Below, one piece after another: positions 3,675-53,227 of a DNA stretch of 64,000 nt. Under the pieces are notes generated by a model that searched no databases, was not told the DNA's origin, and worked only from the letters and a program-made list of their open reading frames with translations. Position numbers and translations under genes: made by a program. The DNA is from Pelagomonas calceolata. Its lineage: Eukaryota. The number at the start of each line of letters is the position of its first letter. The first letter of the stretch is position 1. The stretch lies in contig CAKKNE010000004.1 of the NCBI GenBank assembly GCA_918797485.1, forward strand, positions 248,001-312,000, written 5' to 3'.

Positions 3675-4600
3675 TCACGGCATCGTCAGCCCGCCGTCGA
3701 CGGAGAGGCTCTGGCCCGTGACGGCGTCGGACGCCGGCGCCGCGAAGAAGACGCACGCCGTCGCGAAGTCTTCGACGGTCGTCGTCTTGCGGAGGGGCGT
3801 CGCTCCGGCGACGTAGCCGAAGACCTCGTCCGTCGTTAGCGACGACGCGTCCGTGCGCTCGAGCAGCCCGCCCGCAACGAGGTTGACGCGCACGCCGAGC
3901 GGGCCGAGCTCGGCGGCCAGATTGCGTGTTACACTCACGAGCGCGGCCTTCGCTGCGGAGTAGTCGTAGTACCTGTGTGGAAATCAAATTTCGGGGCCCC
4001 ACGCGCGTCGATGCTGTCTCCGTCAACCTAACTCACTGGTTGATTTCAACGCAGCTAGTACGTCACGACGGGATTATAAACCAGGTTCGTGCCGACGTTA
4101 ACAATCTTGCCGTACTTGGTGGCCTCGAACGACGGCAGGCACGCCTGCGCGGCGTTGACGGCGCCCTGCACAGTGCCTCGCATCTGCGCGTCGATGCTCT
4201 CCCACGACACCGTTTTGAGCGAGGCCGACGCGGACGTCGGGTCGAACTTATATGATTGCAGCGCGTTGTTGACGAGGACCGAGACCTTGGCGCCGAAGTG
4301 GGCCTCGGCCGTCGCTACCAATGCATCCATGTCCGCTTTCACTCTTACATCTCCGTAGACCGCCAACGCCTGCTCGCCGATCTCGGCGACCACGGTTTCG
4401 GCCTTTTCCTTGCTCTGAAAGTAGTTCACGACGACCATGGCGCCCTCGCTCGCAAAGGTTCTCGCGAGCTCGGCGCCGACGCCACGCGAGGCACCGGTGA
4501 TCACGACGAGACGGCCCGCGAGCTGGCCGGCGGGAGCGGAGCACTCGTCCGCCGCCGACGACACGACGGCGGCCATCGATAATAACAGGCGAGTGAGCAT
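3675..4600 (-). CDS. short-chain dehydrogenase/reductase (FabG-like), 2 exons: 4600-4062 and 3972-3675
   Basis: TGASRGVG and VNNA motifs; splicing out 3973-4061 gives NPVVTYYDYSAAKAA (catalytic YxxxK) and the C-terminal VTGQSLSVDGG. Confidence 0.9.
3973..4061 (-). mobile_element. introner element forming an 89-nt GT-AG intron
   Basis: TIRs CTGTGTGGAAATC (3973) and GATTTCAACGCAG (to 4054); TSD GTACTA(C)G supplies the GT donor; removal restores the SDR frame. Confidence 0.9.
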
Positions 4601-4769
4601 GCTGAAGTGCAGTTTTGTGGCAACTTTTGTTGTGAGCCTTGCAAAGCCACACAACTTGTGGACAATGTGGCCTTCAATAAATGGTAGTTCGCAATTGCAG
4701 ATTTGAAAAACTATGCCTAATTCACGGCTAGCTCCTGAACCTTCACTGGCCACAAAAATCCTATAATCC

Positions 4770-4789
4770 CTAAGGTGTGACACACTAGC
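4770..4789 (-). promoter_or_regulatory. promoter palindrome, variant
   Basis: GCTAGTGTGTCACACCTTAG, 170 nt upstream of the SDR gene. Confidence 0.45.
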
Positions 4790-4879
4790 ACCGAGGCTGA
4801 GGCGTCGTTACGCAAACGACGCGCTGCTGATGGAGATACAATAAAGTTACCAAATAAAAGGAGAAAGCGAACGAGCGGC

Positions 4880-5956
4880 TCAAGAACGCCACCGCCGGAA
4901 CGGGTTCCAAGACGACGACGCCGCCGCCGGCCACGGCCGCTCGTTCGCCGCCTTCGCCGCGTCGTCGATCACCGCCAGGAGCGCCTCCATGAATTTCCCC
5001 GTCGCCGTGTTGTGGATGCTGTGACCGCCTTCCACGAACTCCCTTACCTGAACCGAAGGCAGGCGCTTCTGCATGTCCCGAATGCCGTCCGGTCCGTCCC
5101 AATCCGTCACCGTGCCTCCAAACGCCGTGGGCCCCGCGACCCAGAGGTGGACCGAGAACGGCAATGCTTTGTGCGAAGCGAGGGCGTCCCAATTGCGAGT
5201 CGCAGCATCGCAGGCCAGCACGTTCGCGCGCGCGAGCTGCTGCGCTTGCGGGTTCACGTCGCTCCAGTAGCCGCCGCCGGCGATGGGCCGGACCCGCGAC
5301 CCGAGCCAGCCCTGGACGCGGTCGGCCTCGTAGTGCTTCTCGAGGGCCGCGACCGCGTCCTTTTCACTCGCAAATTCCCTATCAAATTCTTCGATCTCCT
5401 CGGTCTCCTGGGGCCGCCGGCCCCACTTCTCGCGGTTCCGGCAGTCCATGTCCTCGACGACGACCGCCGCGAGGCGGTCGGGTGCTTCCCGCGCGGAAAT
5501 CGCCGCCACGGCCATGGCCACGCGGCCGCCCATGCTGTGGCCCACGAGGATCCAAGGTCTCTGAACGCCGTGCTGGACCTCGACGGCGTGGATCACGTCC
5601 CTCGCCAGCGCCTCCGTGGAAAAGCTCGCCGGATCACCGAGCGGGCTCTCGCCGTGGCCGCGCTGGTCGAGCGCCAGCGCGGGCAGGCCCGCCTCGTGCA
5701 GCTTCGGCAATACCTGGTGCCACGTCTGCTTGCTGCTGTCGAGGCCGTGTACCAATACAGTGGTGGGCGTGTTCCTGCCGCGTACGCTCGAGGCGAGCGG
5801 CACGCGCTTATCGCCGCCCAGCGAGAGCGCGCTCGACTGTTGTCCGAGCAGCGCTGCTGCCGGCGCCCATCTAGCAAGCTGCCACAGTCTTGGGCTGGCC
5901 ATGGTGATGAGTGCTACGAGATAGCCAACGAGAGCGCCGACGAGGAGCTGGCGCAT
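4880..5956 (-). CDS. alpha/beta hydrolase (ABHD11/YbfF-like)
   Basis: LVHGL, DQRGHGES, GHSMGG nucleophile elbow, C-terminal GGHSIH. Confidence 0.88.
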   Translation of the reverse strand: MRQLLVGALVGYLVALITMASPRLWQLARWAPAAALLGQQSSALSLGGDKRVPLASSVRGRNTPTTVLVHGLDSSKQTWHQVLPKLHEAGLPALALDQRGHGESPLGDPASFSTEALARDVIHAVEVQHGVQRPWILVGHSMGGRVAMAVAAISAREAPDRLAAVVVEDMDCRNREKWGRRPQETEEIEEFDREFASEKDAVAALEKHYEADRVQGWLGSRVRPIAGGGYWSDVNPQAQQLARANVLACDAATRNWDALASHKALPFSVHLWVAGPTAFGGTVTDWDGPDGIRDMQKRLPSVQVREFVEGGHSIHNTATGKFMEALLAVIDDAAKAANERPWPAAASSSWNPFRRWRS

Positions 5957-6039
5957 GTATTTCTATACAGCACTGCACGAATTTGGCGTACAAGCCGCAG
6001 CGAGCTCTGTCCGCAGCTTTTGCTGCCTTGCCAATGGTT

Positions 6040-6063
6040 GCTAGTGTCTTACAGGACGCTAGC
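6040..6063 (+). promoter_or_regulatory. promoter palindrome
   Basis: GCTAGTGTCTTACAGGACGCTAGC between divergent genes. Confidence 0.7.
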
Positions 6064-7173: not shown

Positions 7174-7197
7174 GCTAGTGTCTTACAGGCCGCTAGG
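7174..7197 (+). promoter_or_regulatory. promoter palindrome
   Basis: GCTAGTGTCTTACAGGCCGCTAGG upstream of the Hsp70-like gene. Confidence 0.7.
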
Positions 7198-10545: not shown

Positions 10546-10569
10546 GCTAGTGTGTTACAGGCCGCTAGC
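10546..10569 (+). promoter_or_regulatory. promoter palindrome
   Basis: GCTAGTGTGTTACAGGCCGCTAGC upstream of STRAP. Confidence 0.7.
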
Positions 10570-26202: not shown

Positions 26203-27706
26203 ATGGCCCAGCCCTACGAGCCCGTCGACGGCTCCGCCTCGCCGCGGCGCAAGCGTATTCTGGTGGCACTGGCCGCCACAGCAGTCCTCTTCGTCGGGGC
26301 CGTCGCGGTGTATGGTACTCCTTCCAGTACTCTAGAAGACTTCAAGAAGGACAAGGAGAAGATGTGGGCGCCGGAGCTCGAGAAGCAGTACCGCGAGTGC
26401 GCCACGGCTCAAAGATACAGAAACGAGCACGTGAAGGCGGTTCACGACTCGCCCGTCGCGTCACTCTTCGAGTACTCAACTCTCAAGGGCGAGGCGAAGT
26501 TCGAGGCCTCCGACGTCGTTCGTATTGGAGAGCACTTCTACTCCATTTGTGATTCCTCGTGGGCCGTGCTGCGCGTGCACGAGTCGCTGCCGATGCGGAG
26601 CAAGCTGAACGCGCATATGGGCGACCCCCAGCACGGCTTCGCGGAAAGGGAATCGGGCTTCGAGGGCATCTTCCACGACAAGACCCAGGACGGCATGTAC
26701 GTCGTCCGCGAGGCGGTCGACATCTCCGGCGGGCGGCGGCGCGGTAACTTTCAGCAAGGTGCCTTCCCAGGGTCGCGTCGACGGCGTCGGCGCGTCGCGT
26801 CGACGGCGTGGTGGCGTCGGCGCGTCGCCTCGATGGCGTGAGGCGGACACAATCGATCGAGCCACGCCCTCGACGCGACTGCGGCGGCTCGACGGCGTGG
26901 CGCGTGGCGCGTGCGCTCCGCGACTTTCAGGCAGCTTACGCCATCGACGCGAGGCGTGAATCGCGTCCCGCGCAGGCGAGTACGCCGACGACACGAACCG
27001 GAGGCGCCTGGGATTGCCGCCCGTGACGGATCATCCCAAGTACCACGCCATCGTCATGCAGATCCTGTTGCCTCCTCCCGATAGTGATGATACGGATTAT
27101 GCGGTCTTAGATAGCTGCCCGTCGGAGATGCTCTTTGACGGTGACTCGAAGGGTTTTGAAGGTGCTCGTAGCATCCGAGGCGCGGACGGCGTCTTATATG
27201 TGCTAGGATTGTGCGAGGGCAACCACTGCTCGTCGCAGACGGGCAAGGACGTGGGCCACGGCAAGGTGATTGTCATGGCGCGCGAGGACGAGGGCGGGCC
27301 GACGGGCGGTTGTTACTGGAAGACGGTCCGAACGATTGATTTACCGATGAAGGAGTTTGTGGACTATTCGGCGCTGGCGATTCATCATCGCACGAAGGCC
27401 GTGGCCATCACGTCGCAGGAGAACAGTCAAGTGTGGGTCGGGGAGTTATCTACCGGTAGTGATGGCGAGTTCGACCCCATGACGGCGGAATTCAGCAAGG
27501 GCAAGGTCTACGACTTCCCGCGCGCCGCGACGTGCGCCGTCCAGTACTGCAACATCGAGGGTATCGAGTGGGTCGACGATGGCGGGGCCGACGAAGATGC
27601 TCCTAGAACTCTCGTTGGTGTTTCGGACAAGATGAAGGGCAAGGGCAAGCAGCCGTTCACCTGCCTCGAGAAGGACCAGTCCTTCCACCTCTTCCAGCTG
27701 CCCTGA
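26203..27706 (+). CDS. type II membrane protein with probable beta-propeller/hydrolase-like ectodomain; one intron ~26744-26975
   Basis: TM ILVALAATAVLFVGAVAVY; repeats FEASDV, FEGI, FEGA, YSALA, IEGI; G|GTAAC donor and CGCAG acceptor join the two ORFs in phase 1. Confidence 0.75.
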
Positions 27707-28689: not shown

Positions 28690-31578
28690 TCAGGCGGCGT
28701 GCGCCTTGAGGAGCTCGAGGAGGAAGAGCCGCTTGTCGAGCACGCGGCCGTCCGGCAGCAAGATGACGAAGTCGACGCCGGCCCAGATCGTGTAGGTGTG
28801 GTTGTGTCGGCACTCGACCGTCGGATCGAAGACCTCCAGGAGCGAAGAAGGCCCCGGCGCGACCTCGCGGATGTCCATCCCGCGGAAGATCAGCGCCGCG
28901 CCGGCCGCTAGCGCGCGCAGCGTCTTGGACTCGAAGACCCAGTCGGGCACGGGGTCCCAGTACTTGCGATTGAGCTCCGGCATGACCGTCGCGAAGTCGT
29001 CGACGAGGAACCAGTCCGTGAGCTTCGAAGAGTTCGGCTTGTGGAAGCGGATGTAGAAGTAAGGCACCGACACCGAGAGTGGGGACCCGAGCTGCGAAGA
29101 CAGGAGCGCCGAGCCGCGCCGCGCGCACGTCGGGAACGAGGAGAAATCGATGGCCGCGTAGTCGACGCCCGCCGAAAAGAGCGACGACACCGCATCAGAA
29201 GAGCCGCCCGCCGCCGAAGACCGCACGACCGCCCGCGAGCGCGTCGCGTCGCGCGTCGCGACGAGGGAGCCGGGGTCGACGCCGGCCACGGTGAGCGCGA
29301 ACGCCGGGACCACGGCGGTGGTGCCGACGAGGCCGGCGCAGGTGGCGTTCCAGAGCAAGCACTTGCAGTCGAAGAACAAGCCGTTCGACCGCTGCAGGAG
29401 CTCCTTGATCACCGCGGTCGACTCGAAGCGCAGGCCCCGCGGGAACACGACGCGGACCCACGACGGCAGCAGGTGCAGGTCCTCGGGGCGTATCTCCAAA
29501 GGAACCCAGAGCAGCGGCAGCCGCATCTTCATCGCGTCCAGCATCGTCTTTCTGCCCAACCATAAGAATTTTGCGAGGGCGTAGCGGCCGAAGACGCACC
29601 GGAAGATGCTGATGCCAGTGTCACCGAAGCAGACGTCCCCGAAGATGAGAGCCATCTGCGCCGCGAACAAGAGGATCTTGTAGATGTACCACCGAGCAGG
29701 GTTTCTACTACCCGTCTCCTTCCGCTTCTCCTGGTCTAACTCCTCCAAATCGTCAATCATAGAACCCCCGCCGACCGTGCACGTCCCCTTGATGACCGCA
29801 AATAAATTGAAGCGCAGTAACAGGGCCGCGAGGCAGCTCGAAGGCGTCTTCCCCGGCGGTAGATCGTTCAGGGCCTTCCGAGCCTCTGGAGTCTTGGGCT
29901 TCGCCCCGGCGTTGCGCACCGCCGCCGTGAGGGGGTCGTCGACATCATCATCATCATCGTCGTCGGCGCGTCGCAGTGGAGGCATGGGCGCGTCCGAGCC
30001 GCTGAAGGCCGCCGATTCAGCCGCACCGCGATCCAGGGAAGGCCCATCTAACGAAGCGACAGGCGCGCCGCGCTGAGAAGACGCCGAGGCGTCCGAAGCA
30101 GCAAGCGCGCGGAGCCCGCGCGACGGCAACGAGCGCAACGCGTCGTCAGAGGCGCCCGCCGTCGGATCATCTAAAGCGTCGAGCGTGCGGGCACCATCGA
30201 GTAGATCGGCGCGGGGCTTCTCGGGCGGCACGTCGCCGCCCGCAGCACCGCCAAACGCCGAAGCCGCGACGACGCGCGGCGCCGCGGGCTGCACGGCGCG
30301 CATCTCCACATCACCATCTAAAGCGGCGCCGGCCGACGCGACGTCGTCGACGGGCAGCGCGCCGCGCGCGTCGCCGCAGGTCGCCGCGGCCGACGCGGCG
30401 ACGGCGTTCACGTCGCCGAGCGGCACGCGCCGCGCCGACGCTTCGGCGGCGAGCTTCTCGTCGCGCTCCTTCCGCAGCTCGGCCTCGAGCTTCTCCTTGG
30501 CCTGCGCGGAGAACCGTCAGCGTGAACGCGTCGCGTCGATGGCGTGAAGGTCGACGCGCCGCTACCGTTTCAGGCTGAAGAGTTCGGACTCGGAAGCACA
30601 CGATCATAATGTGCACGCGCGTCGTCTCCGCGGCGACCGTCAGACACCGACTCAGGGTGCGCATGAGGCCCCGCAGCTTCGTCTCCCGCGACATGCCGTC
30701 CGTCCAGGCGATTTTGATGAACTCGGTCCCGAACAGGGCCCAATCTTCCTTGGACATCTTCTCCAACAAGACCTCGAAGATGGCCTCGCAGTCGGCGTCG
30801 CCCCAGCCCCAGTAATGGCTCTTCACGCCGTCGGGGTTGCCGAAGGGCACCAGGCCGTCGTGCTTGTTCTTGTCGTCATCTGGATGATAGAAGTCCGTCG
30901 GCGTGCCTGCGGGGACGTCGACCAGTGGACGAGGGCCACGCAGTCGAGCGGACGTCGCGTCGATGGCGCGGAGGTCGACGCGATGCTTCAACGACCGTAA
31001 TTCTAGGACGCCGCGTGAGTACAATCGCGGTCCGATCTCCACAATTCGCCGCTCGCCTTGGCCTTCGCGACCATCGCGTCGGCCCGCTCCCTACTGAGTG
31101 CCTTCCAGTAATTTCCACCAATGCCGCCGGTGCGCGCGAGGAAGTCGGTCTTGCCGATCCTCAACTCGAACGAGTCCGGATCCACGAGCGCCTCGCGCCA
31201 CTTGACCTTCCGCCCCAGGTCGTCGAGGCTCTTGAACTCGAGGTCGAGCTTGCCGTCCTCCCGTAACTTGGCGCGCTTCTCTTCCTTGGCGCCGGCTTCG
31301 TCCGGCTGCGCGGCGCGCGCGAGCCGGTCCCTGAGACGCTGCCTCACGGCCGTGCGGTTCGTGCCGCGCCCGCCGTCGCCCGGACCGAGGTCCTTCAAAT
31401 CTTCTTGCGCGAGGCCCGCGAGCGGCACGTCGTCGACGTTCGACGCGTCGATGCTCGCTAAGAAGCCCTGGTGCCCGCGGGGCAGCAGCTCCGTCGGCCC
31501 GCCGTACTCGTCCGCAATCGCCTTGCGCTGCAGCTCGATGCTTCGTTCATTTTTTGTTCTATTCTCCGGACTCAGCAT
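28690..31578 (-). CDS. large hypothetical protein, 3 exons (introns 30907-31049 GC-AG and 30502-30565 GT-AG)
   Basis: Three consecutive minus ORFs join in frame (KAKAS|GTPTDF and LQPET|AKEKLEAE); both introns carry the CGCGTCGATGGCG motif; start codon uncertain. Confidence 0.55.
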
Positions 31579-32795
31579 GCCACCGGCAGCTGCGAGCCGC
31601 GCTTCTTGCCCGCCGGCATGCTGCCGGCGTCGACGGATGCGTGCGTCTGAAGGTGTTTTCGAGCGTCGTGGCGGCCTCGAGAGGCGTCTCGGACTCCAAT
31701 CGGCGCGAGAGTAACGCAGCGGCAACGGGCGGCGTAGCAGTGTACCGAAGCGGCGGTTGAGAGACCGAATGACGTGCAGTGTCCGCGAGCGCACGAAATC
31801 AAGGCACTAACAGCAAATAGCTGCACAGCAGCAAATGAAGCGCACTGGTCGTACTGGTGGACGCGTTCGCTTGCGATCGCGCGCAGTGAGCTATTCCAAC
31901 TGTGCAACGAGTTTACGCGGCGTCGCAGCACAAATTGGGGCTGTAGCAGCAAGGGGCACAGGCTTGGCAGCTTGGCCTTTTGGAGCGGGTTTTTTTCGTT
32001 TTTCGAGCAAGGCGAGCGAAGTTCGGCGAGAACGGCATTTACGGAAACGACATCACAATAAAACACAGCAACCGCGGCCTGGCTGTCAGAATCAAGCCGC
32101 GGCCGCGTGTTATCGATGTGCGCGTCGACGAGCCGCGTCCATCGTCTGCGCCCGGCGAAAGCCCGCGACGTCGCGGCCCACCGCGCGCGGCGGCTGCGCT
32201 GTCTATCGTGACCCCAGCGCGCGGCTCTGCCGCTGGGGCTCCAGCGGGAGCCCATGGGGCAGCATCTGATGAGACAGCACGCCAGGACTAGGCACGCCCG
32301 CGCTCGCGGCGCTGCGGCGATGGCGTCGAGACGCTGCCGCACTCCCATTATGTCGGGCCCCCGGCTGCGCACAGGCGCTGCGTGTTGCCGCAGCAACGAA
32401 TTTCAGCTCGGCCTGAATTGTTTTTTAGTGTGCACGCGTCCGCGCGGCACGCACCAGAGGCAGGCAGCCACTCGCTCCGAGAAGTCTAATATGGAATAGT
32501 TGTGGATAGATACACACACACAACTGAGTTAAGAATGACACATCTGGGTGTCGCCACCGGTGCTGCACACTCCTCCACCACGCGACGGCACTCCTCGGCG
32601 TACGACGCTTGATGAGGGAAGGACCAGTCGTGGTCCCAGAAGCCCGTGAGTCGGAAGCCCCCGGGTCCGAAGCGCCGCGACTGTCGCGCGTCGAGGACGA
32701 CGAAGTCAGGCAGCTCGTGCTGAACAGCTGCCGCGACATCGACGGGATCGTCGGCGTCGCAAGGAGCTCGATTGTCGTGTCGAGGGCTTCGGCAC

Positions 32796-32993
32796 CTGTG
32801 TGGAAATCAAATTTACGGCGCGTTCGTCCTGAATAGCCGCGTCGATCTCCACGCCATCGACGCGATGCCTGCTCGATGGCGTGGCGATGCCGGTTCCTCA
32901 CCGCTCGACGGAGCCAGCGCGGCCACGTCATCGTCGAGAAATGACTTAGTGAAGAATTATCGGCACCCGACGCACTGGTTGATTTCCACACAG
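32796..32993. mobile_element. introner element, 198 bp, long subfamily
   Basis: Perfect TIRs CTGTGTGGAAATC/GATTTCCACACAG; perfect 8-bp TSD TTCGGCAC (32788-32795, 32994-33001), reading GTGCCGAA on the minus strand; closely similar to 45140-45340. Confidence 0.92.
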
Positions 32994-33149
32994 TTCGGCA
33001 CTCGTCGCAGCGATCAGTCCCCGCCGACGGAGTGAACCGGGCTCGACTAGACCGCCGCGCGCGAAGCGCGACCGGCCACGTGTGCAGAACCCGGACGGTC
33101 ATACGGTCCACCTCTCGGTCCCCCAGCGGCTCCGACTGGCTCCTCGACC

Positions 33150-33437: not shown

Positions 33438-33606
33438 CACACGCCATCGAGCCGCACATCGCGTCATGGGGCGCCCGAAATTTGATTTCCACACAGGCGC
33501 CGTGCCGGGCGGTGTCTTGAATAACGGAGATCGCGTCGAGTACCGCGTCGCCGTGTTCAACGAACGCCCGCGCGCCAAGGACGTCCGGGTGCTGAAGCGT
33601 GCCTGA
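33438..33606 (+). pseudogene. truncated introner (right TIR ends at 33496) followed by an orphan 3' exon resembling the C-terminal half of a cold-shock domain
   Basis: GATTTCCACACAG|GC GCC GTG...: AVPGGVLNNGDRVEYRVAVFNERPRAKDVRVLKRA*; no left TIR or 5' exon found. Confidence 0.45.
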
Positions 33607-36085: not shown

Positions 36086-37541
36086 ATGAAGCAACGCCGC
36101 AGACGCACGAGTTGTGCTACCGCGAAGCTCGTCGCCGCCGTCGCCGTCGCCCTCTACGTCTACGTCATCATCAGACTCCACCCACACACTCCGCGCCACT
36201 ACGACGGGCCGCAGCTCGGCGAGACGGGCGACGGCTTCGACGCCACGGGCGAAACTGATGACGACGCCGACGCCATCCACCTCGTCTTCTCGACGGACTG
36301 CGGGGGCTACCAGCACTGGCAGGCCATTTCGAGCTGGTACGCGTCGCTGGCGGCGGGCCACCGCGGGCCCGTCACGAGGATCGCGAGCGGCTGCTCCGCC
36401 GAGCAGGCGGCGAAAATCCGGGCGGAGTTCGCGCGCATCGACAAGACGGGCCGCCTCCGCCTCCATGCGGCACCGTCCACAGCAATCGGCGGCTACAAGT
36501 ACAGCAACAAGCCCGGCGGCCTCGTGCACTTTTTGCAGCACGCGCCCGTCGACGCTAGGTTCGTGGCCCTCGTGGATCCCGACATGCTCATGATCAAGCC
36601 GCTGACGTTGGATGTGGGGCGGGGGACGCGGCGGCCGCGCGGCACGAAGCTGACGGAATACGTCGTCGACGGCGTCGCGGCGGCGCTGAGCGTCTTTGGG
36701 GATTTGCCGGGGCATGTGGCCCACGGCGCGCCCGCGGGCCAGCACTTCGGCGTCGGCGGCGCGTGGCAGCGTGCGGGCCCCGGCGCGCGGCCGGCCTGGG
36801 CGGGCTTCAGCAAGGCCGCCGTCTGTGGCGCGGGCGCGCCGTGCACGCCTGTGTGGAAATCAACCAGTGAGTTAGGTTACGGGGACAACGTCGCGTCGAT
36901 GGCGTGGGGCGTCCGAAAGTTGATCTCCACACAGGTGCACGCGGACGACGGCGAAGGAGGCCGACGAGAAATTTGCCGTGGGACCGGTTTATATTGCTCA
37001 CGTCGACGACTGGAAAAATCTAGCGCCGGCGTGGTGGGCGGCCATGCCTAGAGTTCATGAGCAGTACCCGCATCTCCTCGCCGAAATGTATGCGTTAACG
37101 ATGAGCGCCGCAAACATGACGACACCGTGGTCGCAGCTGTCGTCATATATGGTGAGTGACCCTCGGACCATGTCTCCGACCGAGGCCTGGGCGTGGATCG
37201 ACGATTTAGCGACGCGCGAGGGGCCGGGAGCCGTCTGCGCCGGCGCCACGGCGACGACGCTGCCCGCCGCGACGCGCGACCGGTCGCGCGTCGCGCTGCC
37301 AGTGTTCCTGCACTTTTGCCAAAGATACGAGCTCGCGGGGTATTTCTTCGCCAAGAGGCGGCTTGACCACGGCTTCTTTGGGTGTGGGAGTGAACCACTC
37401 CGATTTGATGCTGACGCGATCATCGGCGGCCTCGGGGGCTCCCCGTCGACCACTGCGGTTCGAACGGCCTTTATGCTCTGCCACATCATCCCGATGATGA
37501 ATTCATTTCTAGCCTCGTACAAACGGGACGCCTGTGATTAA
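36086..37541 (+). CDS. peptidyl-serine galactosyltransferase / hydroxyproline arabinosyltransferase-like glycosyltransferase; intron 36841-36934
   Basis: TM anchor, HLVFSTDC..YQHWQ, GPVTRIASGC, YSNKPGGL, LVDPDM, GPVYI, LLAEMYA, LHFCQRY. Confidence 0.85.
36841..36934 (+). mobile_element. introner element forming a 94-nt GT-AG intron
   Basis: Perfect TSD GTGCACGC (36841-36848, 36935-36942); TIRs at 36849 and 36934; removal restores the frame (APCTRTTAKEADEKFAVGPVY). Confidence 0.95.
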
Positions 37542-37561: not shown

Positions 37562-38478
37562 TTAGAGTGGCGTCATATCCTGGACGGCGCGAAGATCCTC
37601 GGCGAACCACCAGTTGTGCGGCGCTTCGACATGCATGAACGGCGACGACTCGACGACGGCGACGGCCGCGGGCACGGACCAGCTCAGCCTGGGCGGCGGC
37701 CTTTCGGGCACGTGGGACCCAAATTTCGTGTAGACCCGCTCCGGCGGCTTCTCGTCCACCACCACATCATCAGGCGCAAACCGCGGGCCGGCGATTTGCT
37801 CGAACGCCGCCTTCGCAGCGTCGCGGTCGTTCGGCTCCGCCGCCCACCGCATGACGGTGCAGTGGCAGATGTCCGGCAGATGCGGTGCAGGATCATCAGC
37901 CGCGCACACCGACGGCGGCCTCCCTTTGCTCCGGTCGCCACCGCCCACGACCTATGTAAAAATCAAAGTTCAAGGCACCGCACGCCATCGACGCGAGATC
38001 GGTTGATTTCCACGCCGCCTGCGACAGCGTGGCCGCCCCGCGCCCGGATCGACAGCTCGAGCGCGGACCGCATCGCCGCGATGGCCCCGTCCTCGTCGCT
38101 AATGTCCAGCGTCGCGCAGCCGCCCCGAAACGTCGCGCCCGTGACACGCAGCCGGAAGGGCGACGGCGGCCAGCCCTGAGAAATTTTTGCGCCGTCCAGG
38201 ATGTGCCGCCACTCGTCCAGCGTCACCTCGCGGTCCGCGGGATTCAGTTTCGCCGCGTCGTATCGTCTAAGCGTCGCGATCGTCACGTGGAGGTGCTCCG
38301 GCGGCATCCAATAGGCGCCGTTAAGCCGGTGGTCGCGTTCGAGTGTTGCACGCGCCTGCGCCCACTCATTTCTCAGCTCGTCGGAGACCGGGTACGCCAA
38401 GAGCAGCAGCCCGAAGTGGTCGTCGGACGCCTCGCCCTTCTTCAGGGCGGCGGCGTCTGCTGAGGCCCAGGCGCTCAT
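37562..38478 (-). CDS. 2H phosphoesterase superfamily protein; intron 37952-38025
   Basis: Two HxT motifs, HLHVTIA and ICHCTV, one in each exon. Confidence 0.8.
37952..38025 (-). mobile_element. degenerate introner, 74-nt GT-AG intron
   Basis: TSD GTCGCAGG/GTCGTGGG (6/8); eroded TIRs CGGCGTGGAAATC...GATTTTTACATAG. Confidence 0.8.
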
Positions 38479-41489: not shown

Positions 41490-41572
41490 CGCGGAGAGCG
41501 GCCAAAAAAAGGGCCTAGAACTCAAATTTACAGGCAGTTTTTGCACCATAACACGGTCTGGGTTCGTTATTT

Positions 41573-44500: not shown

Positions 44501-46032
44501 CGTAACCAGAGGGGCCAGGCAGGTGGCGTATATGCTCGGTTAGCCGTCGGTGGAGTTTTCCTGCAGTCGCGCTTTGACGCACCAAGGATCGCAGAGTGCG
44601 CCCTAAAAGTCGCTGCCATGGCCCAGCGCTGCGTGTGCGGTAGGAGCGAGGGTGGCGACTACGTGAAGTGTGCTGGCGGCGGGCGCTGTCACGGGTTCGT
44701 GCATCGTCGCTGCGTCGGATTAAAAGCTGACGAAGATGTTCCTGAAGGTTGGCTCTGCCCTTTGTGCGACACGAGCGGTGTTGCCGCGAAGCTCTCGGTT
44801 CACGGCGACGGCCCGCTGGCCAAATCTTCGCCTCTCATCGGTCGGGTCCTACTTCAGGCGCAAGGTGACGACGACGACGACGGCGCCGCTCAGGCGCCAC
44901 TGTTGTTGCGTGCGGTCGGCGCGAGAAAACAGCGCGGCGGAGAAGTTCTAGTGCGCTGCGTAGCCCTCTTCGGCGAGGGCGATGAGACGTATGAAATTAG
45001 CGAGGCGACCGCTCGCCGCGCTGCAATTAGGCGCGAGACGGCTGAAGCGCAGGCCATGGTGGCGATGCACGCCAGGGGCGGCAAGTACACCTTCCACACG
45101 ACTACGGAAGATTGCAATGTGTGCGCGCATTGCCTTGGCCTGTGTGGAAATCAAAATTTTACGGCGCGTTCGTGCTGAATCATCGCGTCGTCCTCCACGC
45201 CATCGACACGACGCCTGCTCGATGGCGTGGCGATGCCGGTTCCTCGCCGCTCGACCGAGCCAGGTCGGCCGCGTCATCGCCGAGAAATGACTTAGTGACG
45301 AATTGTCGTGCACCCGACACACTGATTGATTTCCACACAGGCCTCGATAAACCTAGCAATGGCGGCACCGGCACCCTTAAACGAGCGTGCATAGCGAAAG
45401 ATGATGAGCGCGCCGTAGCATTATTGTATCTCGCCTCGGGCGCGCCACCGCCGGGCGGAGGTCAGTGGGCAACGCACGGCGCCGCGCCGCCGCCGGCCAC
45501 GACACCGCAGCGCAAACACGTCTACTGGGACAATGATCGCGGGGAGCCCGACGACTCGGACGATGAAGAAGGCTTCGTCAAGAAGGATGCGCGCGTCGTC
45601 GCACCCTGGATCGACGGGCAGTGGTATTCTGCGACGATCGTACACGTGGGTCACCGGACCGCTCGCGTGGCGTTCGAAGATGGAACGATTCACACTGTGC
45701 AGCGCTCCGAGCTCCTCGAGGACGACCGCTCCTCGCGACGAAGCGTCGCAAAAAAGGTCGTCACTCCGGCCAAGCCGCGGCCCGCGCCACCGCCTCCGCC
45801 GCCGCCGCCGCCGCCGCCGCGGCCGACGGGGCCGTGCGCGATCTGCATGTCGACGATCGACGACGGCGCGCACGTGCTGCAGTGCGGCCACGCCTTCCAC
45901 GCGAGCTGCCTGCGCGACATGTCGGATGTTGTGCGCATCGCGTCGGCCACGAGACGCTCCCGAGGGGTCGCGTGCCCGCTCTGCCGCAAGGTGACGCGCG
46001 CCGAAGTAGGCGTCGACGCCGACGAGGCCTAG
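41573..46032 (+). CDS. multidomain chromatin protein: SAM-like, Tudor, MBD, PHD, partial CXXC, Tudor, RING; intron 45132-45340
   Basis: Tudor VGALVDADFQ..HYFPAII...YRVVFDDG; MBD LASGW...DRYFHPPDGGKQLRSMAEV; PHD CVC...C..C...H..C...WLCPLC; DCNVCAHCLDKPSNGG; RING-H2 CAIC...CGHAFHASC...CPLCR. Confidence 0.85.
45132..45340 (+). mobile_element. introner element forming a 209-nt GC-AG intron
   Basis: TIRs at 45140 and 45340; eroded TSD GCCTTGGC/GCCTCGAT; spliced HCLDKPSN matches intron-less HCLDAPRN in the neighbouring paralogue. Confidence 0.9.
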
Positions 46033-46171
46033 GCTGTGCCCTGTTAAGTATAACGTATGAAAATCGATCTTCTAGGTGACGCAATTCCTTAAGTCGCGGA
46101 ATGGAATCCGGGCCGAGGCTGAGGCTGAGGCTAGTTACGTCGCAGGGCTCCCCGTACCCCTCCCGCTCCTT

Positions 46172-46193
46172 GCTAGTGTCTTACGGCCGCTAG
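46172..46193 (+). promoter_or_regulatory. promoter palindrome
   Basis: GCTAGTGTCTTACGGCCGCTAG upstream of the second PHD/RING gene. Confidence 0.7.
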
Positions 46194-46361
46194 ATCTGCT
46201 CTCAGGTCGAGAGAGAGCAGCGGTCCCGCAGGGCGAAAAACGAAGCGCGGAGGGTACCGAACAAACCAAATCATAGTCCATCTCGAGCGCTGCTGCGGCG
46301 CGAACCTAGCAGCTTCAGGCAGCTGGGTTTTTTGCATTGCTTTTACAGAGGCAGAGGCGAA

Positions 46362-49300: not shown

Positions 49301-50705
49301 TACAGGCGGCGGCGATTACGTGAAGTGCGCCGGAGGCGCGACCGGTCGCTGCCGCGGCTTCGTGCACCGCCGCTGCGTCGGGCTGAAAGCTGACGCGATT
49401 GTGTCGGAAGATTGGCTTTGCCCGCTGTGTGACGATAGCGTTGCGACCAGGCTCTCGGTCCACGGCGGCCCGCTGGCGACACCGCTCATCGGACGCGTCC
49501 TTCTGCAGACGCCTGGTGCCACCATGGCTGCCCCGTCAGCGCCTCTACTGTTACGCGCCGTCGGCGCGAGGACGCGGCCCGAGGCCGTGACCGCTGATGC
49601 GACCAAGTCGCCTCCGTCCGGCAGCCGCGTCGCTGTGACGTTCGACTGCGGTGAAGAATACGAAGGGACGGTGGACGACGTGCTTGATGACAAAAGTGCC
49701 ATGATAGATTTCGACGACGGCCAGAGCGAGAAGGTGAACTTTACGGAGGGAGGCGTGCGACTGATCTCGGGCAACGATGTCGTCGTGCGGTGCGTGGCGC
49801 TCGTCGGCGACGGCGACGAGTCGTGGGAATTAAGCGAGGCGGCCGCGCGGCACGCGGCCCTCCGGCGCGAGACGGCCGAGCTCCAATCGCAAATGGCCAT
49901 GCTGTCGCGGGGTGGGAAATATGTTTTCCATACCACGACGCCCAACTGCGAGTGCTGTGCTCACTGCCTTGACGCGCCGCGGAACGGCGGGCCTGGAACG
50001 CTAAAAAAGGCCTGCATCGAGAAGGACGGCGAGCGCGCAATCGCGCTCTTGCACCTCGCGAGCGGCGCGCAGCCACCGGGCGGCGGGCGCTGGCTCACGC
50101 ACAACCTCAAGGCGCCGAATAAACCGCGGCCGGCGAAGTCGCCGTCGCGAGCGTTCGACCCGAACAGCCTGCCAGTCTTCGATCCGAATGACGAGGACGT
50201 TTTCGGGCGCGGTGCCAAGGTCGTGGCGCCGTATACCGATGGGCACTGCTACCGAGCCACTGTTGTCCGTGCTCAACAAAACTGTGTTCGCGTGATCTTC
50301 GAGGACGGGACGCCGCATACCTGCCAGCGATCGGAGCTCGATTTGGACGACAGCCCTGTGGGCGGCGGCGGGGGCGACGCGGACGACGCGGGCGACGACG
50401 AGAAGGCGACGCCGCCTCCAAAGAGTGCGACGCGGCCGAAGAAGCGTCCGAAGCTGTCAGCCCCTACGCCGCCGCCTCCTCCTGCACGGGTGGCGCCGTC
50501 GGAGCCGTGCGCCATCTGCATGTCGATGATCGACGCCGACGAGGCGCATGTGCTCCAATGTTCTCACGCCTTTCACGCCGACTGCCTTCGTCAGATGGCG
50601 GGCCACGTGCGGCTCTCGTCGCATACGCGGCGTTCGATCACGGTGAGCTGTCCGCTCTGCCGGAAAGTGACGCGCGCGGAAGTGGGCGTCGACGCCGAGG
50701 CCTGA
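46362..50705 (+). CDS. tandem paralogue of the preceding gene: Tudor repeats, PHD, partial CXXC, RING; no MBD recognised
   Basis: Shares DDEPVDGAASFPVGSWVRHATTGAK, VRVCVPTRERLKAEAQA, PHD and C-terminal CPLCRKVTRAEVGVDA; ATG at 46362. Confidence 0.88.
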   Translation: MHSEGEQAVPVDADQAVPPVNAEQAMPPVIHAQPPPRSAGEPVIHAQPPLSSAAGEALQARLDEVICVHILDRNPAGGMQVIRNRFTSCDGTAMRQFVVTSTGGVRCAICCDNDAPFVLSSRTPLVTQLHDMKKHCGQYESERGQPQTRTHLQLLRLLLEGALHEAPAEAPVEPEAPVEPEAPAEAPIPEPVAADDSDADDEGPWPQPGQVVEVVWTKGTTLENPGEDGVDGVDRCVVESIWGLKPQKRRGSGYQCYAKLQSLIRLAGDADEPYKIVSADDPRPKHVHLKHKLVDAGEGRTWRILAPATANELLDRVASSAAAVSDEAPLPPPEDVDVVAPPVAEMAIEAMPEEPAAAAEATPAPARPPKRAREESESDTEAPAEPDVSGDDEPVDGAASFPVGSWVRHATTGAKGVVVSVYDGKRSVLCDDKAHNWGLGMIQSAPGAPPEAIAAVAAARYAKRGDWVRDEQTGKKGVIVEIIPKGRRTILCDNDEELKRTTSEFRIASGAPPAALVAKAAAWRKTAKKKMAPPPPRKRAAPADAESSRPPPQRPTPQHPFAVGELVADIDAPEHALEVVSVDGGTYTLKYRDAGAWRGQEVSRGRENLAAFGSALPRRRRVAAPPAPKAKPPPPAPTKKKKPAAKKARRVTQPPAAARPANAPEGAVFDHAAQLHGKWVSPWRRGGPKGPAPLWCKWHDDMDLAEDDDADTPLGRGCWEVQWSDRTASYLARDDVRVCVPTRERLKAEAQAPTPTSTKRARRVTESPQAPPPRPRPPTPPPAPAPEPATDDDESYDEFGPGAKVVAPASDGKVYRATVVQAYKNALRVQWEDGAIDSAPREECELLERAPKRVRITDEDKRERRREQQELRDMAQHDTPALLLLLERRAMALHDKPRQRAAALRAARPVERRDWYGDITAVKDGLIVRARKEDENVNGCCVRLAVGGVFLSSQFSSAKEGEAALVAAATAQRCVCGRHDTGGGDYVKCAGGATGRCRGFVHRRCVGLKADAIVSEDWLCPLCDDSVATRLSVHGGPLATPLIGRVLLQTPGATMAAPSAPLLLRAVGARTRPEAVTADATKSPPSGSRVAVTFDCGEEYEGTVDDVLDDKSAMIDFDDGQSEKVNFTEGGVRLISGNDVVVRCVALVGDGDESWELSEAAARHAALRRETAELQSQMAMLSRGGKYVFHTTTPNCECCAHCLDAPRNGGPGTLKKACIEKDGERAIALLHLASGAQPPGGGRWLTHNLKAPNKPRPAKSPSRAFDPNSLPVFDPNDEDVFGRGAKVVAPYTDGHCYRATVVRAQQNCVRVIFEDGTPHTCQRSELDLDDSPVGGGGGDADDAGDDEKATPPPKSATRPKKRPKLSAPTPPPPPARVAPSEPCAICMSMIDADEAHVLQCSHAFHADCLRQMAGHVRLSSHTRRSITVSCPLCRKVTRAEVGVDAEA

Positions 50706-50809
50706 ACTGTGCCCTGTGCTTAAGTATTACAAGACCCATAATTTGCCCGACGGCGTTGGAGGGAGAAATTCCATGTTACGACGAAAAACAAAATGGACGA
50801 GCCCGTACG

Positions 50810-51729
50810 CTAGTCCTCCTTCCGCGGCGCGTACGCCCGGATCTGCCAGGCCAGCATTCCGTTCAACGTGAACGACGCTCCATACCCCAGCAGCAGCACC
50901 GCGTCGGCGCTCTCTACCGCTGTCGTGAACAAGCGCGCGGCGTTGCCGAGGAGGCGCATTTGAACCTGTGGTGGAAATCAACCAGTGAGTAGGTGCACAG
51001 TAATTTCTCGGCGACAGCGCGGCCGTGATGACTGCATCAAGAGGGATGTAAGACCCACACCGCCACGCCATCGAGCAGACATCGCGTCGATGGCGTGGAG
51101 GCATGATTCAGCCGTATGCGAGAAGCGCCGCGAAGTTTGATTTCCACACGCGTCCGCGCCGTCGCGGCCGAGAGCGCGCCGGTCTCTTGCCGCCGCCGGT
51201 TCTTCAGGATCTGCGGCACGAGCGAGCCGATATTCGCGACGAGGGACACGGACGACAGGACCCACGCGTAGGCCAGGGGCGTCGCGGCGCAGAGGGCGAC
51301 CGCGCCGGCGCCGAGCGCCGCGCTCATGACGCCGCGCGTCCCATTCTTCTCGAACCCGTAGGCCAGCAAACATAAGACCACGTTCTGGATGAGTACGAGC
51401 ACCTGCTCGCCGTAGCTGTGCAACGAATAGCTCAGCTTCACAGAGTACGCGATCGACGCGATGAAAACGAGGACGTCGAGCTCGAGCGACAGCAAGGAGA
51501 GGCCGTCGGCGCTCTTGGCTTTCAGTACGTTGAGGATCTGGGGCACTTTGAGCAACGCGGCGCCGGCCACGATGCAGAGGGACGCGGCTCGGCTGACGGC
51601 GTCCAACGCGCACGGCAGGTAGTAGTCCAGTTTTCGCACGCAGCCGACCGGGTCCAGCTCCACGAAAAGTTGTTTGAGGCCTTCGAGGAAGATCGGCCAG
51701 CACTCGTCGCTGAAGACGAGGAGAGGCAT
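50810..51729 (-). CDS. MPDU1: mannose-P-dolichol utilization defect 1-like PQ-loop protein; intron 50966-51159
   Basis: LLKVPQILNV..KSADGLS, YGE, VPQILKN...TGALSAAT|VQMRLLGNAARLFTT. Confidence 0.88.
50966..51159 (-). mobile_element. introner element forming a ~194-nt GC-AG intron
   Basis: TIR remnants at 50966 (CTGTGGTGGAAATC) and ~51151; TSD no longer recognisable; splice restores the MPDU1 alignment. Confidence 0.8.
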
Positions 51730-51946
51730 GGTGATCTGTTCAATCAATGCGGGCTGTGCGAGGGCTGTGCAGGCTGTCAGGCTGCAGGAGGCTGAGCAGT
51801 CTATACGGGGGAGCGGCGACGGCGTCTAGTTTGCAGCTGTCGAACGCTTGTCAGCTGGCAGCTGTATGCGATCGTTGGGTGCACTTCAGCGCTCCCACGA
51901 CGATTACAAGCTCGCAAAGCAGCGCATCCTTGCTTGCTAGGGAATG

Positions 51947-51970
51947 CCTAGTGTCTTACAGGGCGCTAGC
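51947..51970 (+). promoter_or_regulatory. promoter palindrome
   Basis: CCTAGTGTCTTACAGGGCGCTAGC between divergent genes. Confidence 0.7.
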
Positions 51971-52317
51971 TCAAGGGCGTTGACTCAAAATGCATTGTAG
52001 CAGTGGTCAAGGAGGCAGCTGAAACGCAGCCGTGCTTGGATCGATGCGTTGCCGGCGCCGAGGCCGACTTGGAATTGTTGTCGAATTGGCCCGATTTTTT
52101 TGCTGCCTCCGCAGCAAAGACGTGCAACCAAGCCCATACAATCCTTCACCGCGTGCTCAGCGACGCAGACCCTTCACCCCTTGAAGGACAGGGTCCGTCC
52201 ATAGCAACAACATCAGCAAGCTCTCCCTCCCTGTTGCTGCAGTTACGCGCGCGCGCATCGATTGATTGATCCAATTACGCCATCACCACACTCCCACGTA
52301 AAGCACAACAAGCCACC

Positions 52318-53227
52318 ATGTCACAGTACCCCGTTGCCCAGGTCGTCGGCGGACAGCAGGGCGGCGTCGTCGGAGTAGTGAGCCAGCCCTCGGACGTGAA
52401 CCTAGATATCGGCGGCCGCGTGGAACGGATGCAGAACGAGCTCGACGTGCCGGAGCAGATCGTGCGCGATTTGTTGAGCGTGGCGGGCGCGGACATCGTC
52501 GTGATCGCCGACGACAGTGGCTCGATGGGCGCCGTCGCGAACTACGTCACGCGGTCGACGCGGTGGACGGAGTCGGGAGCCGTGTGGAAACCAAATGTCG
52601 CGACGTGGGCCCGGTAGCTGGCATAACATAACTCACCGGTTGATTCCACACAGGTTGCGCGATACGCTCCAGAAGCTCGCGCACATGCTTTTGGTCGTGG
52701 ACCACACGGACGGCTTCCACATCCAGTTCTTGAACGATCCGACGTGGCACGAGATCCGCAGCGGCTCCCAGGTCGAGACGCTGTTCTACGGGCGGCAGCC
52801 CAAGGGCCGGACGCCGCTCGCGACGCGACTGAGACCGCTCCTCAGCGGCCAGTGGCACCCCAAGGGCCACGGCGCCGAGACGGACTTGATATTACTGATC
52901 ATGACGGACGGCGAGCCGTCGGACTGCTCCTTTTCGGAACTTAGGCAGTTAGTCGGCCAGAAGTCCCCGAAAGTGTACTGCACGTTCATGATGTGCACCG
53001 AGGAGGACGACGTCGTCGAGCAGTACAACAAGTCGCTGGACCGCCTGCCCGGCGTGGACATCACCGACGATTATGTGAGCGAGAAGAAGGAGGTGGAGAA
53101 GCTGGGCAACAAGCTGAGCTACTACAAGTGGATGGCCAAGGCCGTGCTCGGCGGTAAGATGCCGAAATACGACCACATGGACGAGAAGCGGGCCGGCGGC
53201 GGCGGGGCGTGCTGCGTGATCGCGTGA
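52318..53227 (+). CDS. von Willebrand factor A domain protein with C-terminal CaaX (CCVIA); intron 52572-52653
   Basis: MIDAS DDSGSM, GRTPL, IMTDGEP; spliced TRWTE|LRDTL. Confidence 0.85.
52572..52653 (+). mobile_element. degenerate introner, 82-nt GT-AG intron
   Basis: GT plus 6 nt, then CCGTGTGGAAACC...GATTCCACACAG; TSD eroded (GTCGGGAG/GTTGCGCG). Confidence 0.85.

What the first reader, a model, noticed from the sequence alone, without database searches (positions are those of the whole stretch)
3973..52653. Introner transposon family generating introns, visible at several stages of decay
Seen: seven complete copies (3973, 32796, 36849, 37952, 45140, 50966, 52580) and one truncated copy (to 33496) share the TIR CTGTGTGGAAATC...GATTTCCACACAG. 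The TIR supplies the acceptor AG. The donor is the first two bases of an 8-bp TSD (perfect at 36841/36935 and 32788/32994, progressively eroded elsewhere), so splicing restores the host frame exactly. There are two size classes (~75-95 and ~195-210 nt). Established: this is the mechanism described for Aureococcus introner elements, non-autonomous DNA transposons with one carried and one co-opted splice site. The introns explain several apparently split ORFs in the track.
Basis: partly seen in the sequence, partly recalled or inferred. Interest (0 to 1): 0.75.

Follow-up and report, generated by a model that had tools for sequence, protein, structure and literature searches.

The report
Introner transposons making introns in Pelagomonas
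Small mobile DNA elements in the ocean alga Pelagomonas calceolata sit inside genes and are cut out of the RNA as introns, using one splice signal that they carry and one taken from the 8-base duplication that their insertion likely made; this way of making introns is already described for this group of algae.

Summary
The inverted-repeat end CTGTGTGGAAATC occurs 12 times against 0.89 expected. It bounds seven complete copies (66-201 nt) and one truncated copy at the stated coordinates.

RNA-seq joints show five copies spliced out exactly as "8 nt + element": 36841-36934, 37952-38025(-), 45132-45340, 50966-51159(-) and 52572-52653. Homology supports a sixth, 3973-4061(-). The acceptor AG is the last two bases of the repeat. 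The donor is GT in four copies and GC in two.

In 66 further copies from ocean metagenomes only an 8-bp duplication fits: 29 of 66 are perfect. The duplication starts with GT or GC on the coding strand in 51 of 56 cases.

The copy at 32796 was not shown to be spliced. A simple decay series is not statistically supported.

The window is Pelagomonas calceolata. About 956 putative introner elements with GT/GC donors, AG acceptors and inverted repeats are already published for this species. Verdict: real, correctly read, already known; moderate-to-low interest.

The parts
3973..4061 (-). Short copy (element 3973-4054, 82 nt) plus a 7-nt remnant of the upstream TSD copy. Together they form an inferred 89-nt GT-AG intron in a short-chain dehydrogenase gene.
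   Evidence: Sequence. Pfam adh_short_C2 positions 1-129 lie on the upstream exon and 142-236 on the downstream exon. The spliced product is gapless across the junction against 9 of 11 aligned relatives. No RNA reads were laid here.
32788..33001 (-). Long copy (element 32796-32993, 198 nt) with a perfect 8-bp TSD that starts with GT on the minus strand. It lies in a weakly transcribed stretch without a convincing coding frame.
   Evidence: 8/8; E 1.6e-68. Frames. Minus-strand RNA depth beside it is about 2.5. No joint for it is among the joints listed, so splicing is not shown.
33440..33496 (+). Truncated copy: the 3' part of the element, ending in the intact TIR.
   Evidence: exact TIR at 33484-33496. 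(short model positions 41-85, E 3e-6; long model positions 111-197, E 0.003).
36841..36934 (+). 94-nt GT-AG intron: 8-nt upstream TSD copy plus short copy 36849-36934. The TSD is perfect.
   Evidence: Joint 36840>36935 (GT..AG, 8 letters fit either side) in one transcript contig of run X1. There were 0 raw reads at the low depth of this gene. Removal joins 902 and 604 nt of open frame with coding-like GC3.
37952..38025 (-). 74-nt GT-AG intron on the minus strand: short copy 37952-38017 plus 8 nt. The host gene has a LigT-like phosphoesterase domain.
   Evidence: Joint 37947>38022 (CT..AC at cut +4). Raw reads: 11 (X21), 12 (X22), 1 (X23), all with first mate on +. Also contigs of X1, X6, X5 and X8. 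Pfam.
45132..45340 (+). 209-nt GC-AG intron: 8 nt plus long copy 45140-45340, in a PHD/Tudor/RING gene (41552-46029).
   Evidence: Joint 45131>45341 (GC..AG): 19 raw reads (18 with first mate on -) and contigs of X1, X6 and X11. The spliced product aligns without a gap across the junction to the intronless tandem paralogue 46194-50702.
50966..51159 (-). 194-nt GC-AG intron on the minus strand: long copy 50966-51151 plus 8 nt, in a PQ-loop gene. It is the most diverged long copy.
   Evidence: Joint 50964>51159 skips 194, with 2 letters fitting either side. At cut +1 it reads GC..AG on the minus strand. 28 raw reads (first mate on +) and contigs of X1, X6 and X11. Sequence, Pfam. Identity to the subfamily majority is 0.64 and the TSD is 3/8.
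52572..52653 (+). 82-nt GT-AG intron: 8 nt plus short copy 52580-52653.
   Evidence: Joint 52571>52654 (GT..AG): 70 raw reads (first mate on -) and contigs of X1, X6 and X11.
30907..31046 (-). Decayed copy of about 140 nt. The present 116-nt GT-AG intron (30907-31022) ends at the decayed TIR, but its donor lies about 24 nt inside the element's other end. That end therefore appears to be coding now (inferred).
   Evidence: nhmmer core match 30935-31001, E 4.3e-10. End-to-end alignment with family members. Joint 30905>31022 (CT..AC at cut +1): 4 and 18 raw reads plus 2 contigs. The public P. calceolata protein P0121 has the same junction.
26729..26975 (+). 247-nt GC-AG intron holding several copies of the family's core motif. 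It is possibly a strongly decayed or related element.
   Evidence: Joint 26727>26975 (4 letters fit either side; GC..AG at cut +1): 32 and 16 raw reads plus 2 contigs. Three core-motif hits lie inside it. The nhmmer match is only E 0.005. Membership is not established.

Best explanation
The window holds seven complete copies, one truncated and at least one decayed copy of a 66-201-nt element with terminal inverted repeats that is removed from mRNA as an intron: the acceptor AG is the last two bases of the repeat and the donor GT or GC is the first two bases of the upstream copy of an 8-bp target-site duplication; the element was likely inserted by a DNA transposase acting in trans, which was not found.

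Shown here:
- The splice boundaries of five copies by RNA and of a sixth by homology.
- The 8-bp duplication.
- The excess of G-Y at its first two bases on the coding strand.
- Use of the element in both orientations.
- Exact restoration of the reading frame.

Because both ends are the same inverted repeat (CTGTG...CACAG), either orientation offers an AG. The only further need is G-T or G-C at the start of the duplicated 8-mer on the transcribed strand.

Inferred:
- Cut-and-paste or copy-in DNA transposition as the origin of the TIR plus TSD.
- Survival in genes mainly of those insertions whose duplication happens to give a donor.
- Pairing of the repeats in young copies, which would bring donor and acceptor together in the pre-mRNA.

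The organism is Pelagomonas calceolata.
For: Family and ends: 12 matches against 0.89 expected; alignments; models.

RNA, (one raw polyA RNA run plus three contig sets):
- 36840>36935: one contig.
- 37947>38022: 11 reads plus 2 contigs.
- 45131>45341: 19 reads plus 3 contigs.
- 50964>51159: 28 reads plus 3 contigs.
- 52571>52654: 70 reads plus 3 contigs.
Mate strands fit each host gene's strand. (two other raw runs, two contig sets) repeats 37947>38022.

Homology: 3973 copy; 45140 copy against the intronless paralogue.

TSD: 66 paired elements from 62 metagenome loci. Mean identity 0.80 and 29 of 66 perfect at k=8; 0.21-0.32 and at most 6 perfect at every other k from 2 to 12.

Donor:
- G-Y at the TSD start on at least one strand in 63 of 66, against 0.324 of 36,152 background 8-mers.
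- Among the 56 of 66 with one callable coding strand, 51 have G-Y on that strand (38 GT, 13 GC); 15 have it on the other strand.
- TSD positions 3-8 show no base above 28 of 56.

Orientation relative to the coding strand: 25 forward, 29 reverse.

Folds: the repeats close the element in the two young copies tested, z -2.4 and -5.2.

No transposase domain was found in 43 translated stretches of the window.

Organism.
Against: - The 32796 copy, which has a perfect TSD, has no listed splice joint and no coding frame. So not every copy is shown to be an intron.
- The 36849 joint rests on one contig of one run. The raw run showed 0 such reads, and no such joint is among the 15 listed.
- The three contig sets are labelled only as guessed RNA.
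- No autonomous element and no empty site in DNA was seen, so transposition itself is inferred from TIR plus TSD.
- The metagenome copies were fished with an exact 15-nt repeat end, which favours young copies. Their coding strand was called from composition and open frames, not from RNA.
- Folds of three older copies are no better than shuffles (z -0.17, -0.10, +0.38), so repeat pairing is not needed for splicing.
- TSD matches do not track element divergence (rho -0.06, 0.24, 0.52; p 0.71, 0.29, 0.10). Copy 45140 is 96% like its subfamily majority yet has only 5 of 8 TSD matches.
Confidence: 0.93

Rival explanations
1. The G-Y at the start of the duplication reflects the transposase's own target preference, not survival of spliceable insertions. 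The element would then insert only at G-Y sites and be spliceable from the start.
For: 63 of 66 copies have G-Y on at least one strand, including 9 of the 10 copies for which no coding strand could be called. Position 7 of the TSD is a purine in 38 of 56, a weak hint of a symmetric target.
Against: A symmetric target would give G-Y equally on both strands. Instead it is 51 of 56 on the coding strand and 15 of 56 on the other. Position 8 is C in only 22 of 56. The 10 copies without a call mostly have short flanks and may still be genic.
Confidence: 0.2
2. The family spreads through RNA (reverse splicing of excised introns followed by reverse transcription), as proposed for fungal introner-like elements, not through DNA transposition.
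For: All confirmed copies are introns, and element sequence is abundant in polyA RNA (depth peaks over the copies).
Against: Reverse splicing would not create a fixed 8-bp duplication. It needs no inverted repeats and would insert in one orientation only, whereas both occur about equally. Copies 32796 and 33440-33496 lie outside coding frames.
Confidence: 0.02
3. The shared sequences are ordinary introns copied along with duplicated genes, or chance GC-rich repeats, and not mobile elements.
For: The window contains a tandem gene duplication (41552-46029 and 46194-50702).
Against: The host genes are unrelated: dehydrogenase, LigT-like, PHD/RING, PQ-loop and two without a family. The paralogue lacks the intron. 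12 repeat ends were found against 0.89 expected. Sixty-six further copies lie in unrelated flanks.
Confidence: 0.01

Closest known systems
Putative introner elements of Pelagomonas calceolata (Guerin et al. 2022, PMC9481584 and its preprint; passages and Supplementary Note 3 seen)
   Same: Same organism. The paper reports 956 putative elements, an intron-length peak near 210 nt, GT and GC donors, AG acceptors in all, and conserved inverted repeats at the ends. All of this fits what is seen here.
   Different: The passages I saw give no element sequence, no TSD length and no statement on orientation. A search of the held supplements for the repeat end found nothing, and one PDF supplement could not be read. 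Identity of the family with theirs is therefore inferred, not checked by sequence.
Aureococcus anophagefferens introner elements (Huff, Zilberman and Roy 2016, Nature 538:533). The paper is not held and is known here only through citing papers.
   Same: Non-autonomous DNA elements in a pelagophyte. One splice site is carried and the other recruited from the TSD. They insert in both orientations. Families with TSD and TIR average 200 nt, beside families of about 76 nt (Gozashti Table S6). An 8-bp TSD is given for an Aureococcus sp. family.
   Different: Different genus. Sequence homology to the Aureococcus families was not tested because no Aureococcus element was available. GC donors are 13 of 51 here, against 2.0% and 2.8% in the two roughly 200-nt A. 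anophagefferens families.
Pelagomonas sp. ocean-MAG introner families (Gozashti et al. 2022, PMC9860276, Table S6 rows seen)
   Same: Families averaging 80, 85, 177.5 and 186 nt, with 54.5-64.6% GC, in Pelagomonas genomes from ocean samples.
   Different: TSD and TIR are entered as '?' for all four families and donors as 100% GT, on 7-33 copies each. Here the TSD (8 bp), the TIR and the GC donors are resolved.
Symbiodinium and Polarella introner-like elements (10.1101/2020.10.14.339549, passages seen; Gozashti Fig. 2B legend)
   Same: [quoted passage not shown]
   Different: The TSD is 4 nt with general sequence GHNN, intron creation works in one orientation only, and the lineage (dinoflagellates) is unrelated.
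hAT-superfamily miniature inverted-repeat elements (general knowledge, recalled)
   Same: 8-bp target-site duplication, short terminal inverted repeats, no coding capacity.
   Different: The recalled hAT end motif (YARNG) does not fit CTGTG. No transposase was found, so the superfamily is unassigned.

Membership tests
Introner elements of the DNA-transposon type (Aureococcus/Pelagomonas kind) | Many similar copies that coincide with spliceosomal introns of unrelated genes | tested here: met
   Seven complete copies in the window. Six coincide with introns. Host genes belong to different Pfam families or to none. 66 further copies lie in unrelated flanks.
Introner elements of the DNA-transposon type (Aureococcus/Pelagomonas kind) | Terminal inverted repeats | tested here: met
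   A 13-15-nt inverted repeat lies at both ends. It closes the predicted fold of the young copies.
Introner elements of the DNA-transposon type (Aureococcus/Pelagomonas kind) | Target-site duplication of fixed length | tested here: met
   8 bp. Mean identity 0.80 and 29 of 66 perfect at k=8; no other k from 2 to 12 exceeds 0.32. Two of seven window copies are perfect.
Introner elements of the DNA-transposon type (Aureococcus/Pelagomonas kind) | One splice site carried by the element, the other co-opted from the duplication | tested here: met
   RNA joints at five copies end at the repeat's AG and start at base 1 of the 8-mer. G-Y lies on the coding strand in 51 of 56 metagenome copies.
Introner elements of the DNA-transposon type (Aureococcus/Pelagomonas kind) | Splicing restores the pre-insertion coding sequence | tested here: met
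   Gapless alignment across the junction to an intronless paralogue and to 9 of 11 relatives. Open coding-like frames are joined at the other four.
Introner elements of the DNA-transposon type (Aureococcus/Pelagomonas kind) | Non-autonomous: mobilised by a transposase encoded elsewhere | tested here: inconclusive
   The elements are 61-207 nt, too short to encode a protein. No transposase domain was found in 43 translated stretches of the window. The whole genome is not held, so the partner could not be sought.
Introner elements of the DNA-transposon type (Aureococcus/Pelagomonas kind) | Recent mobility (presence/absence differences between relatives) | tested here: inconclusive
   A 91%-identical environmental orthologue of the dehydrogenase (P0003) carries a long copy, read through by the gene caller, at a site that is uninterrupted in the window. 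The tandem paralogue lacks the 45140 intron. No empty site of a window copy was seen in DNA.
Introner elements of the DNA-transposon type (Aureococcus/Pelagomonas kind) | Preferential insertion in nucleosome linkers | not testable with these tools
   No chromatin data. The feature is known from citing papers only.
Fungal-type introner-like elements (no TIR, no TSD, RNA-based spread proposed) | Absence of TIR and TSD; sense orientation only | tested here: not met
   TIR and an 8-bp TSD are present. Both orientations occur, 25 and 29.
hAT superfamily MITE | 8-bp TSD, YARNG-type ends, related hAT transposase | tested here: inconclusive
   8-bp TSD met. The end CTGTG does not fit the recalled YARNG motif. 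The transposase could not be sought.

The most novel reading that the evidence does not exclude
The family is still mobile in wild Pelagomonas and its close relatives, so intron gain can be followed as presence/absence polymorphism in ocean metagenomes of one of the most abundant picoeukaryotes. Beyond G-Y the donor needs no sequence of its own: any 8-mer that starts with GT or GC works, in either orientation of the element. The constant repeat just downstream would then define the 5' splice site.
Probability: 0.4. Interest if true: 0.5.

Novelty: already known. Interest (0 to 1): 0.25.

Why it matters
Introner elements are the only documented route by which thousands of spliceosomal introns arise in a short time, and pelagophytes are one of the two lineages where the mechanism was worked out.

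This window is a compact worked example in P. calceolata. It shows exact RNA boundaries, an intronless paralogue as an internal control, GC donors in about a quarter of copies, equal use of both orientations, and older copies whose ends have drifted.

It adds detail that the passages I read did not state for this species: the 8-bp duplication, two long subfamilies sharing one repeat end, and near-random donor positions 3-8. It adds no new principle.

Practical point: gene callers that ignore these introns put truncated proteins or proteins with translated element sequence into public protein sets (P0001, P0003, P0007, P0123-P0126).

Tried and rejected
- Whole-genome search for more copies and an autonomous partner: no genome is held for this window.
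- Huff et al. 2016: not held under DOI, PMC id or PubMed id.
- The repeat end as a text string: 0 papers and 0 hits in the supplements of PMC9481584.
- Earlier notes of this scan: nothing by place, sequence or words.
- RNA evidence for the 32796 copy: depth over it is dominated by reads from other copies, the neighbouring depth is about 2.5, and no matching joint was among those listed. It stays undecided.
- Orthologous empty or filled sites: blastn of all 121 metagenome loci against the window gave only element-to-element matches, none in the flanks.
- A decay clock: TSD matches against identity to the majority sequence gave no significant correlation. All 36 long copies: rho -0.06. Subfamily A (21 copies): 0.24. 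Subfamily B (11 copies): 0.52.
- The strong internal GTGAGT 19 nt inside the forward end was considered as the real donor. I rejected it because no listed joint uses it and it would leave 26 nt and break the frame.
- Placing the intron between 30906 and 28693 from open frames alone gave 45 possible pairs. The public protein P0121 settles it as 30502-30601; my first guess was 15 nt off.
- The 52-nt intron (20468-20519) and the 245-nt intron (25946-26190) were considered as relics because they hold a core-like motif. I did not claim them, since the motif also occurs outside introns.

Full report
**Observation**

The repeat end CTGTGTGGAAATC occurs 12 times with up to 2 mismatches, against 0.89 expected; the largest of 100 shuffles gave 4.

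Reading the sequence confirms complete copies at:
- 3973-4054
- 32796-32993
- 36849-36934
- 37952-38017
- 45140-45340
- 50966-51151
- 52580-52653

There is also a 3' fragment ending at 33496.

The repeat is really 15 nt long. Inside it the element is asymmetric. One end continues with a motif containing GTGAGT, the other with an A/T-rich stretch, and a palindromic core lies in the middle.

Profile searches built from these copies find nothing else complete in the window. They do pick up core matches at 30935-31001 (E 4.3e-10), 30515-30564 (E 5.7e-6) and 26861-26902 (E 0.005).

**RNA evidence**

A run search gave polyA RNA-seq raw reads and several contig sets of one cultured organism.

On 32725-52724 the listed joints include five that match "8 nt + element" to the base:

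| Joint | Length and ends | Support |
|---|---|---|
| 36840>36935 | 94 nt, GT..AG | one contig only; 0 raw reads at low depth |
| 37947>38022 | 74 nt, minus-strand GT..AG | 11 reads, 2 contigs |
| 45131>45341 | 209 nt, GC..AG | 19 reads, 3 contigs |
| 50964>51159 | 194 nt, minus-strand GC..AG when the 2-letter ambiguity is resolved | 28 reads, 3 contigs |
| 52571>52654 | 82 nt, GT..AG | 70 reads, 3 contigs |

The strand of the first mates agrees with the strand of each host gene as judged from codon-position GC content.

On 20001-40000 with other runs, the 37947>38022 joint recurs with 12 and 1 reads and 2 contigs. Four further introns appear: 30907-31022, 26729-26975, 25946-26190 and 20468-20519.

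No joint for the 32796 copy is among the 15 joints listed in either call. One search left 151 joints unlisted and one search left 98. The transcript depth next to this copy is only about 2.5.

**Homology controls**

- The 3973 copy interrupts a short-chain dehydrogenase. Pfam profile positions 1-129 lie on one side and 142-236 on the other.
- Removing 89 nt (the element plus a 7-nt remnant of the 8-mer) gives a product that aligns without a gap across the junction to 9 of 11 relatives, from haptophytes to bacteria. Of the other two, one is a gene call truncated in the intron. The other has a 38-residue insertion there that looks like translated element core.
- The 45140 copy interrupts the first of two tandem paralogues. 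The second (46194-50702) is one open frame, and the spliced first gene aligns to it without a gap across the junction.

**The duplication and the donor, on independent copies**

In them I found 66 elements with both ends and at least 20 nt of flank, in 62 loci.

- Comparing k bases before with k bases after gives mean identity 0.80 and 29 of 66 perfect at k=8. For every other k from 2 to 12 it gives 0.21-0.32.
- The 8-mer starts with GT or GC on at least one strand in 63 of 66, against 0.324 of background 8-mers.
- For 56 of the 66, exactly one strand carries a coding-like open frame across the excised junction. On that strand the 8-mer starts with G-Y in 51 (38 GT, 13 GC). On the opposite strand it does so in 15.
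- Positions 3-8 are close to random.
- Two of the five exceptions have the GT shifted by one base, like the window's 3973 copy.
- The element lies forward in 25 and reverse in 29 relative to the coding strand.

Caveats: the scan favours copies with intact ends, and strands were called from composition, not from RNA.

**Mechanism**

The symmetric ends give an AG acceptor in either orientation. The staggered cut that makes the 8-bp duplication places a second copy of the target 8-mer upstream. If that 8-mer begins with GT or GC, the pre-mRNA can be cut there, and the mRNA regains the original sequence exactly.

- The strong strand asymmetry of G-Y argues that genic insertions without a donor are lost, rather than that the enzyme targets G-Y. 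This step is inferred.
- In the two young copies tested, the repeats pair and close the whole element, leaving donor and acceptor at the base of the stem (z -2.4 and -5.2).
- Three older copies do not fold better than shuffles and are still spliced. Pairing is therefore at most a help.
- No transposase is encoded in the window, and the genome could not be searched.

**Decay**

Qualitatively the window shows a range:
- Intact ends and perfect duplications: 32796, 36849.
- Drifted ends and duplications: 37952, 52580, 50966.
- A copy at 30907-31046 that aligns end to end with the family, with many T-to-C and A-to-G changes.

In the 30907-31046 copy the intron still ends at the decayed repeat, but the donor now lies about 24 nt inside the other end. 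That end therefore seems to be translated (inferred). The same junction is in the public P. calceolata protein P0121. Four environmental orthologues carry translated core sequence at this site, so this intron is old.

As a clock the idea fails. TSD matches do not correlate significantly with divergence from the majority sequence. Copy 45140 is 96% like its subfamily yet has 5 of 8 TSD matches.

The long copies fall into at least two subfamilies that share only the ends: 21 copies including all three window copies, and 11 copies.

**Identity and literature**

A 96-residue exon is 100% identical to an NCBI protein of Pelagomonas calceolata on a 5.31-Mb contig. The window's 63% GC fits the published 63.6%.

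- Guerin et al. 2022 (passages and Supplementary Note 3) report 956 putative introner elements. They describe an intron-length peak near 210 nt, GT and GC donors, AG acceptors and conserved inverted repeats.
- Gozashti et al. 2022 (passages and table rows) list Pelagomonas MAG families with TSD and TIR undetermined. They also list Aureococcus families of about 200 and about 76 nt, one with an 8-bp TSD.
- A 2020 preprint and a 2023 review summarise the Aureococcus mechanism as one carried and one TSD-derived splice site, with insertion in both orientations.
- The original 2016 paper could not be read.

**Verdict**

It is an instance of a published phenomenon in the species where it is published. 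What is added here is detail, not principle.

Noticed in passing
window 6041-6062, 7175-7196, 10547-10568, 12056-12077, 25764-25785, 34997-35018, 35836-35857, 38567-38588, 51948-51969, 54524-54545: A 22-nt motif (CTAGTGTCTTACAGGCCGCTAG, up to 3 mismatches) occurs 10 times against 0 expected. It always lies between genes, often between divergently transcribed ones and close to RNA 5' ends (for example 38567-38588 beside read ends at 38524-38529). It may be a promoter or transcript-boundary element.
   Followed up: partly
window 41552-46029 and 46194-50702: Tandem paralogues encoding large PHD/Tudor/RING proteins, 52-59% identical in the aligned blocks. Only the first carries the element-derived intron.
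   Followed up: yes
window 3410, 5580, 20287, 27811 and inside the element copies: The element's core motif CACGCCRTCGA occurs 18 times against 0.27 expected. Four hits lie outside any recognisable copy, two of them in upstream or intergenic DNA. The motif may have a role of its own, or these may be relics.
   Followed up: partly
proteins P0001, P0003, P0007, P0123-P0126: Public protein sets hold gene calls that stop in, or read through, these elements. The read-throughs give recurring peptides such as ...RVDLHAIDA... and ...LVDFHTG. P0003, a 91%-identical orthologue, carries a long copy at a site that is intact in the window.
   Followed up: partly
window 20468-20519, 25946-26190, 30502-30601: Three further introns: 52 nt in a fucosyltransferase-like gene, 245 nt in a 5' untranslated region (RNA joints), and 100 nt (from the public protein). 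Two hold the core motif or a close variant, but no family ends were recognised.
   Followed up: partly
window 24476: An extra A after this position appears in 18 of 62 and 17 of 72 RNA reads of two runs, but in none of the contigs. It lies inside the DEAD-box helicase gene. It could be an allele, a homopolymer error or a slip.
   Followed up: no
window 37549-37568: Transcripts of the minus-strand gene 37565-38493 end within about 15 nt of its stop codon (contig ends at 37549-37555, read ends at 37568). One transcript contig runs across three neighbouring genes on both strands. The gene spacing is extremely tight.
   Followed up: no
metagenome copies L087, L035 and window 45140: Copies 94-97% identical to their subfamily majority have poor duplications (2, 5 and 5 of 8 matches). 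Possible causes are recombination between copies, gene conversion of the elements, or change of the intronic 8-mer. This is unexplained.
   Followed up: no
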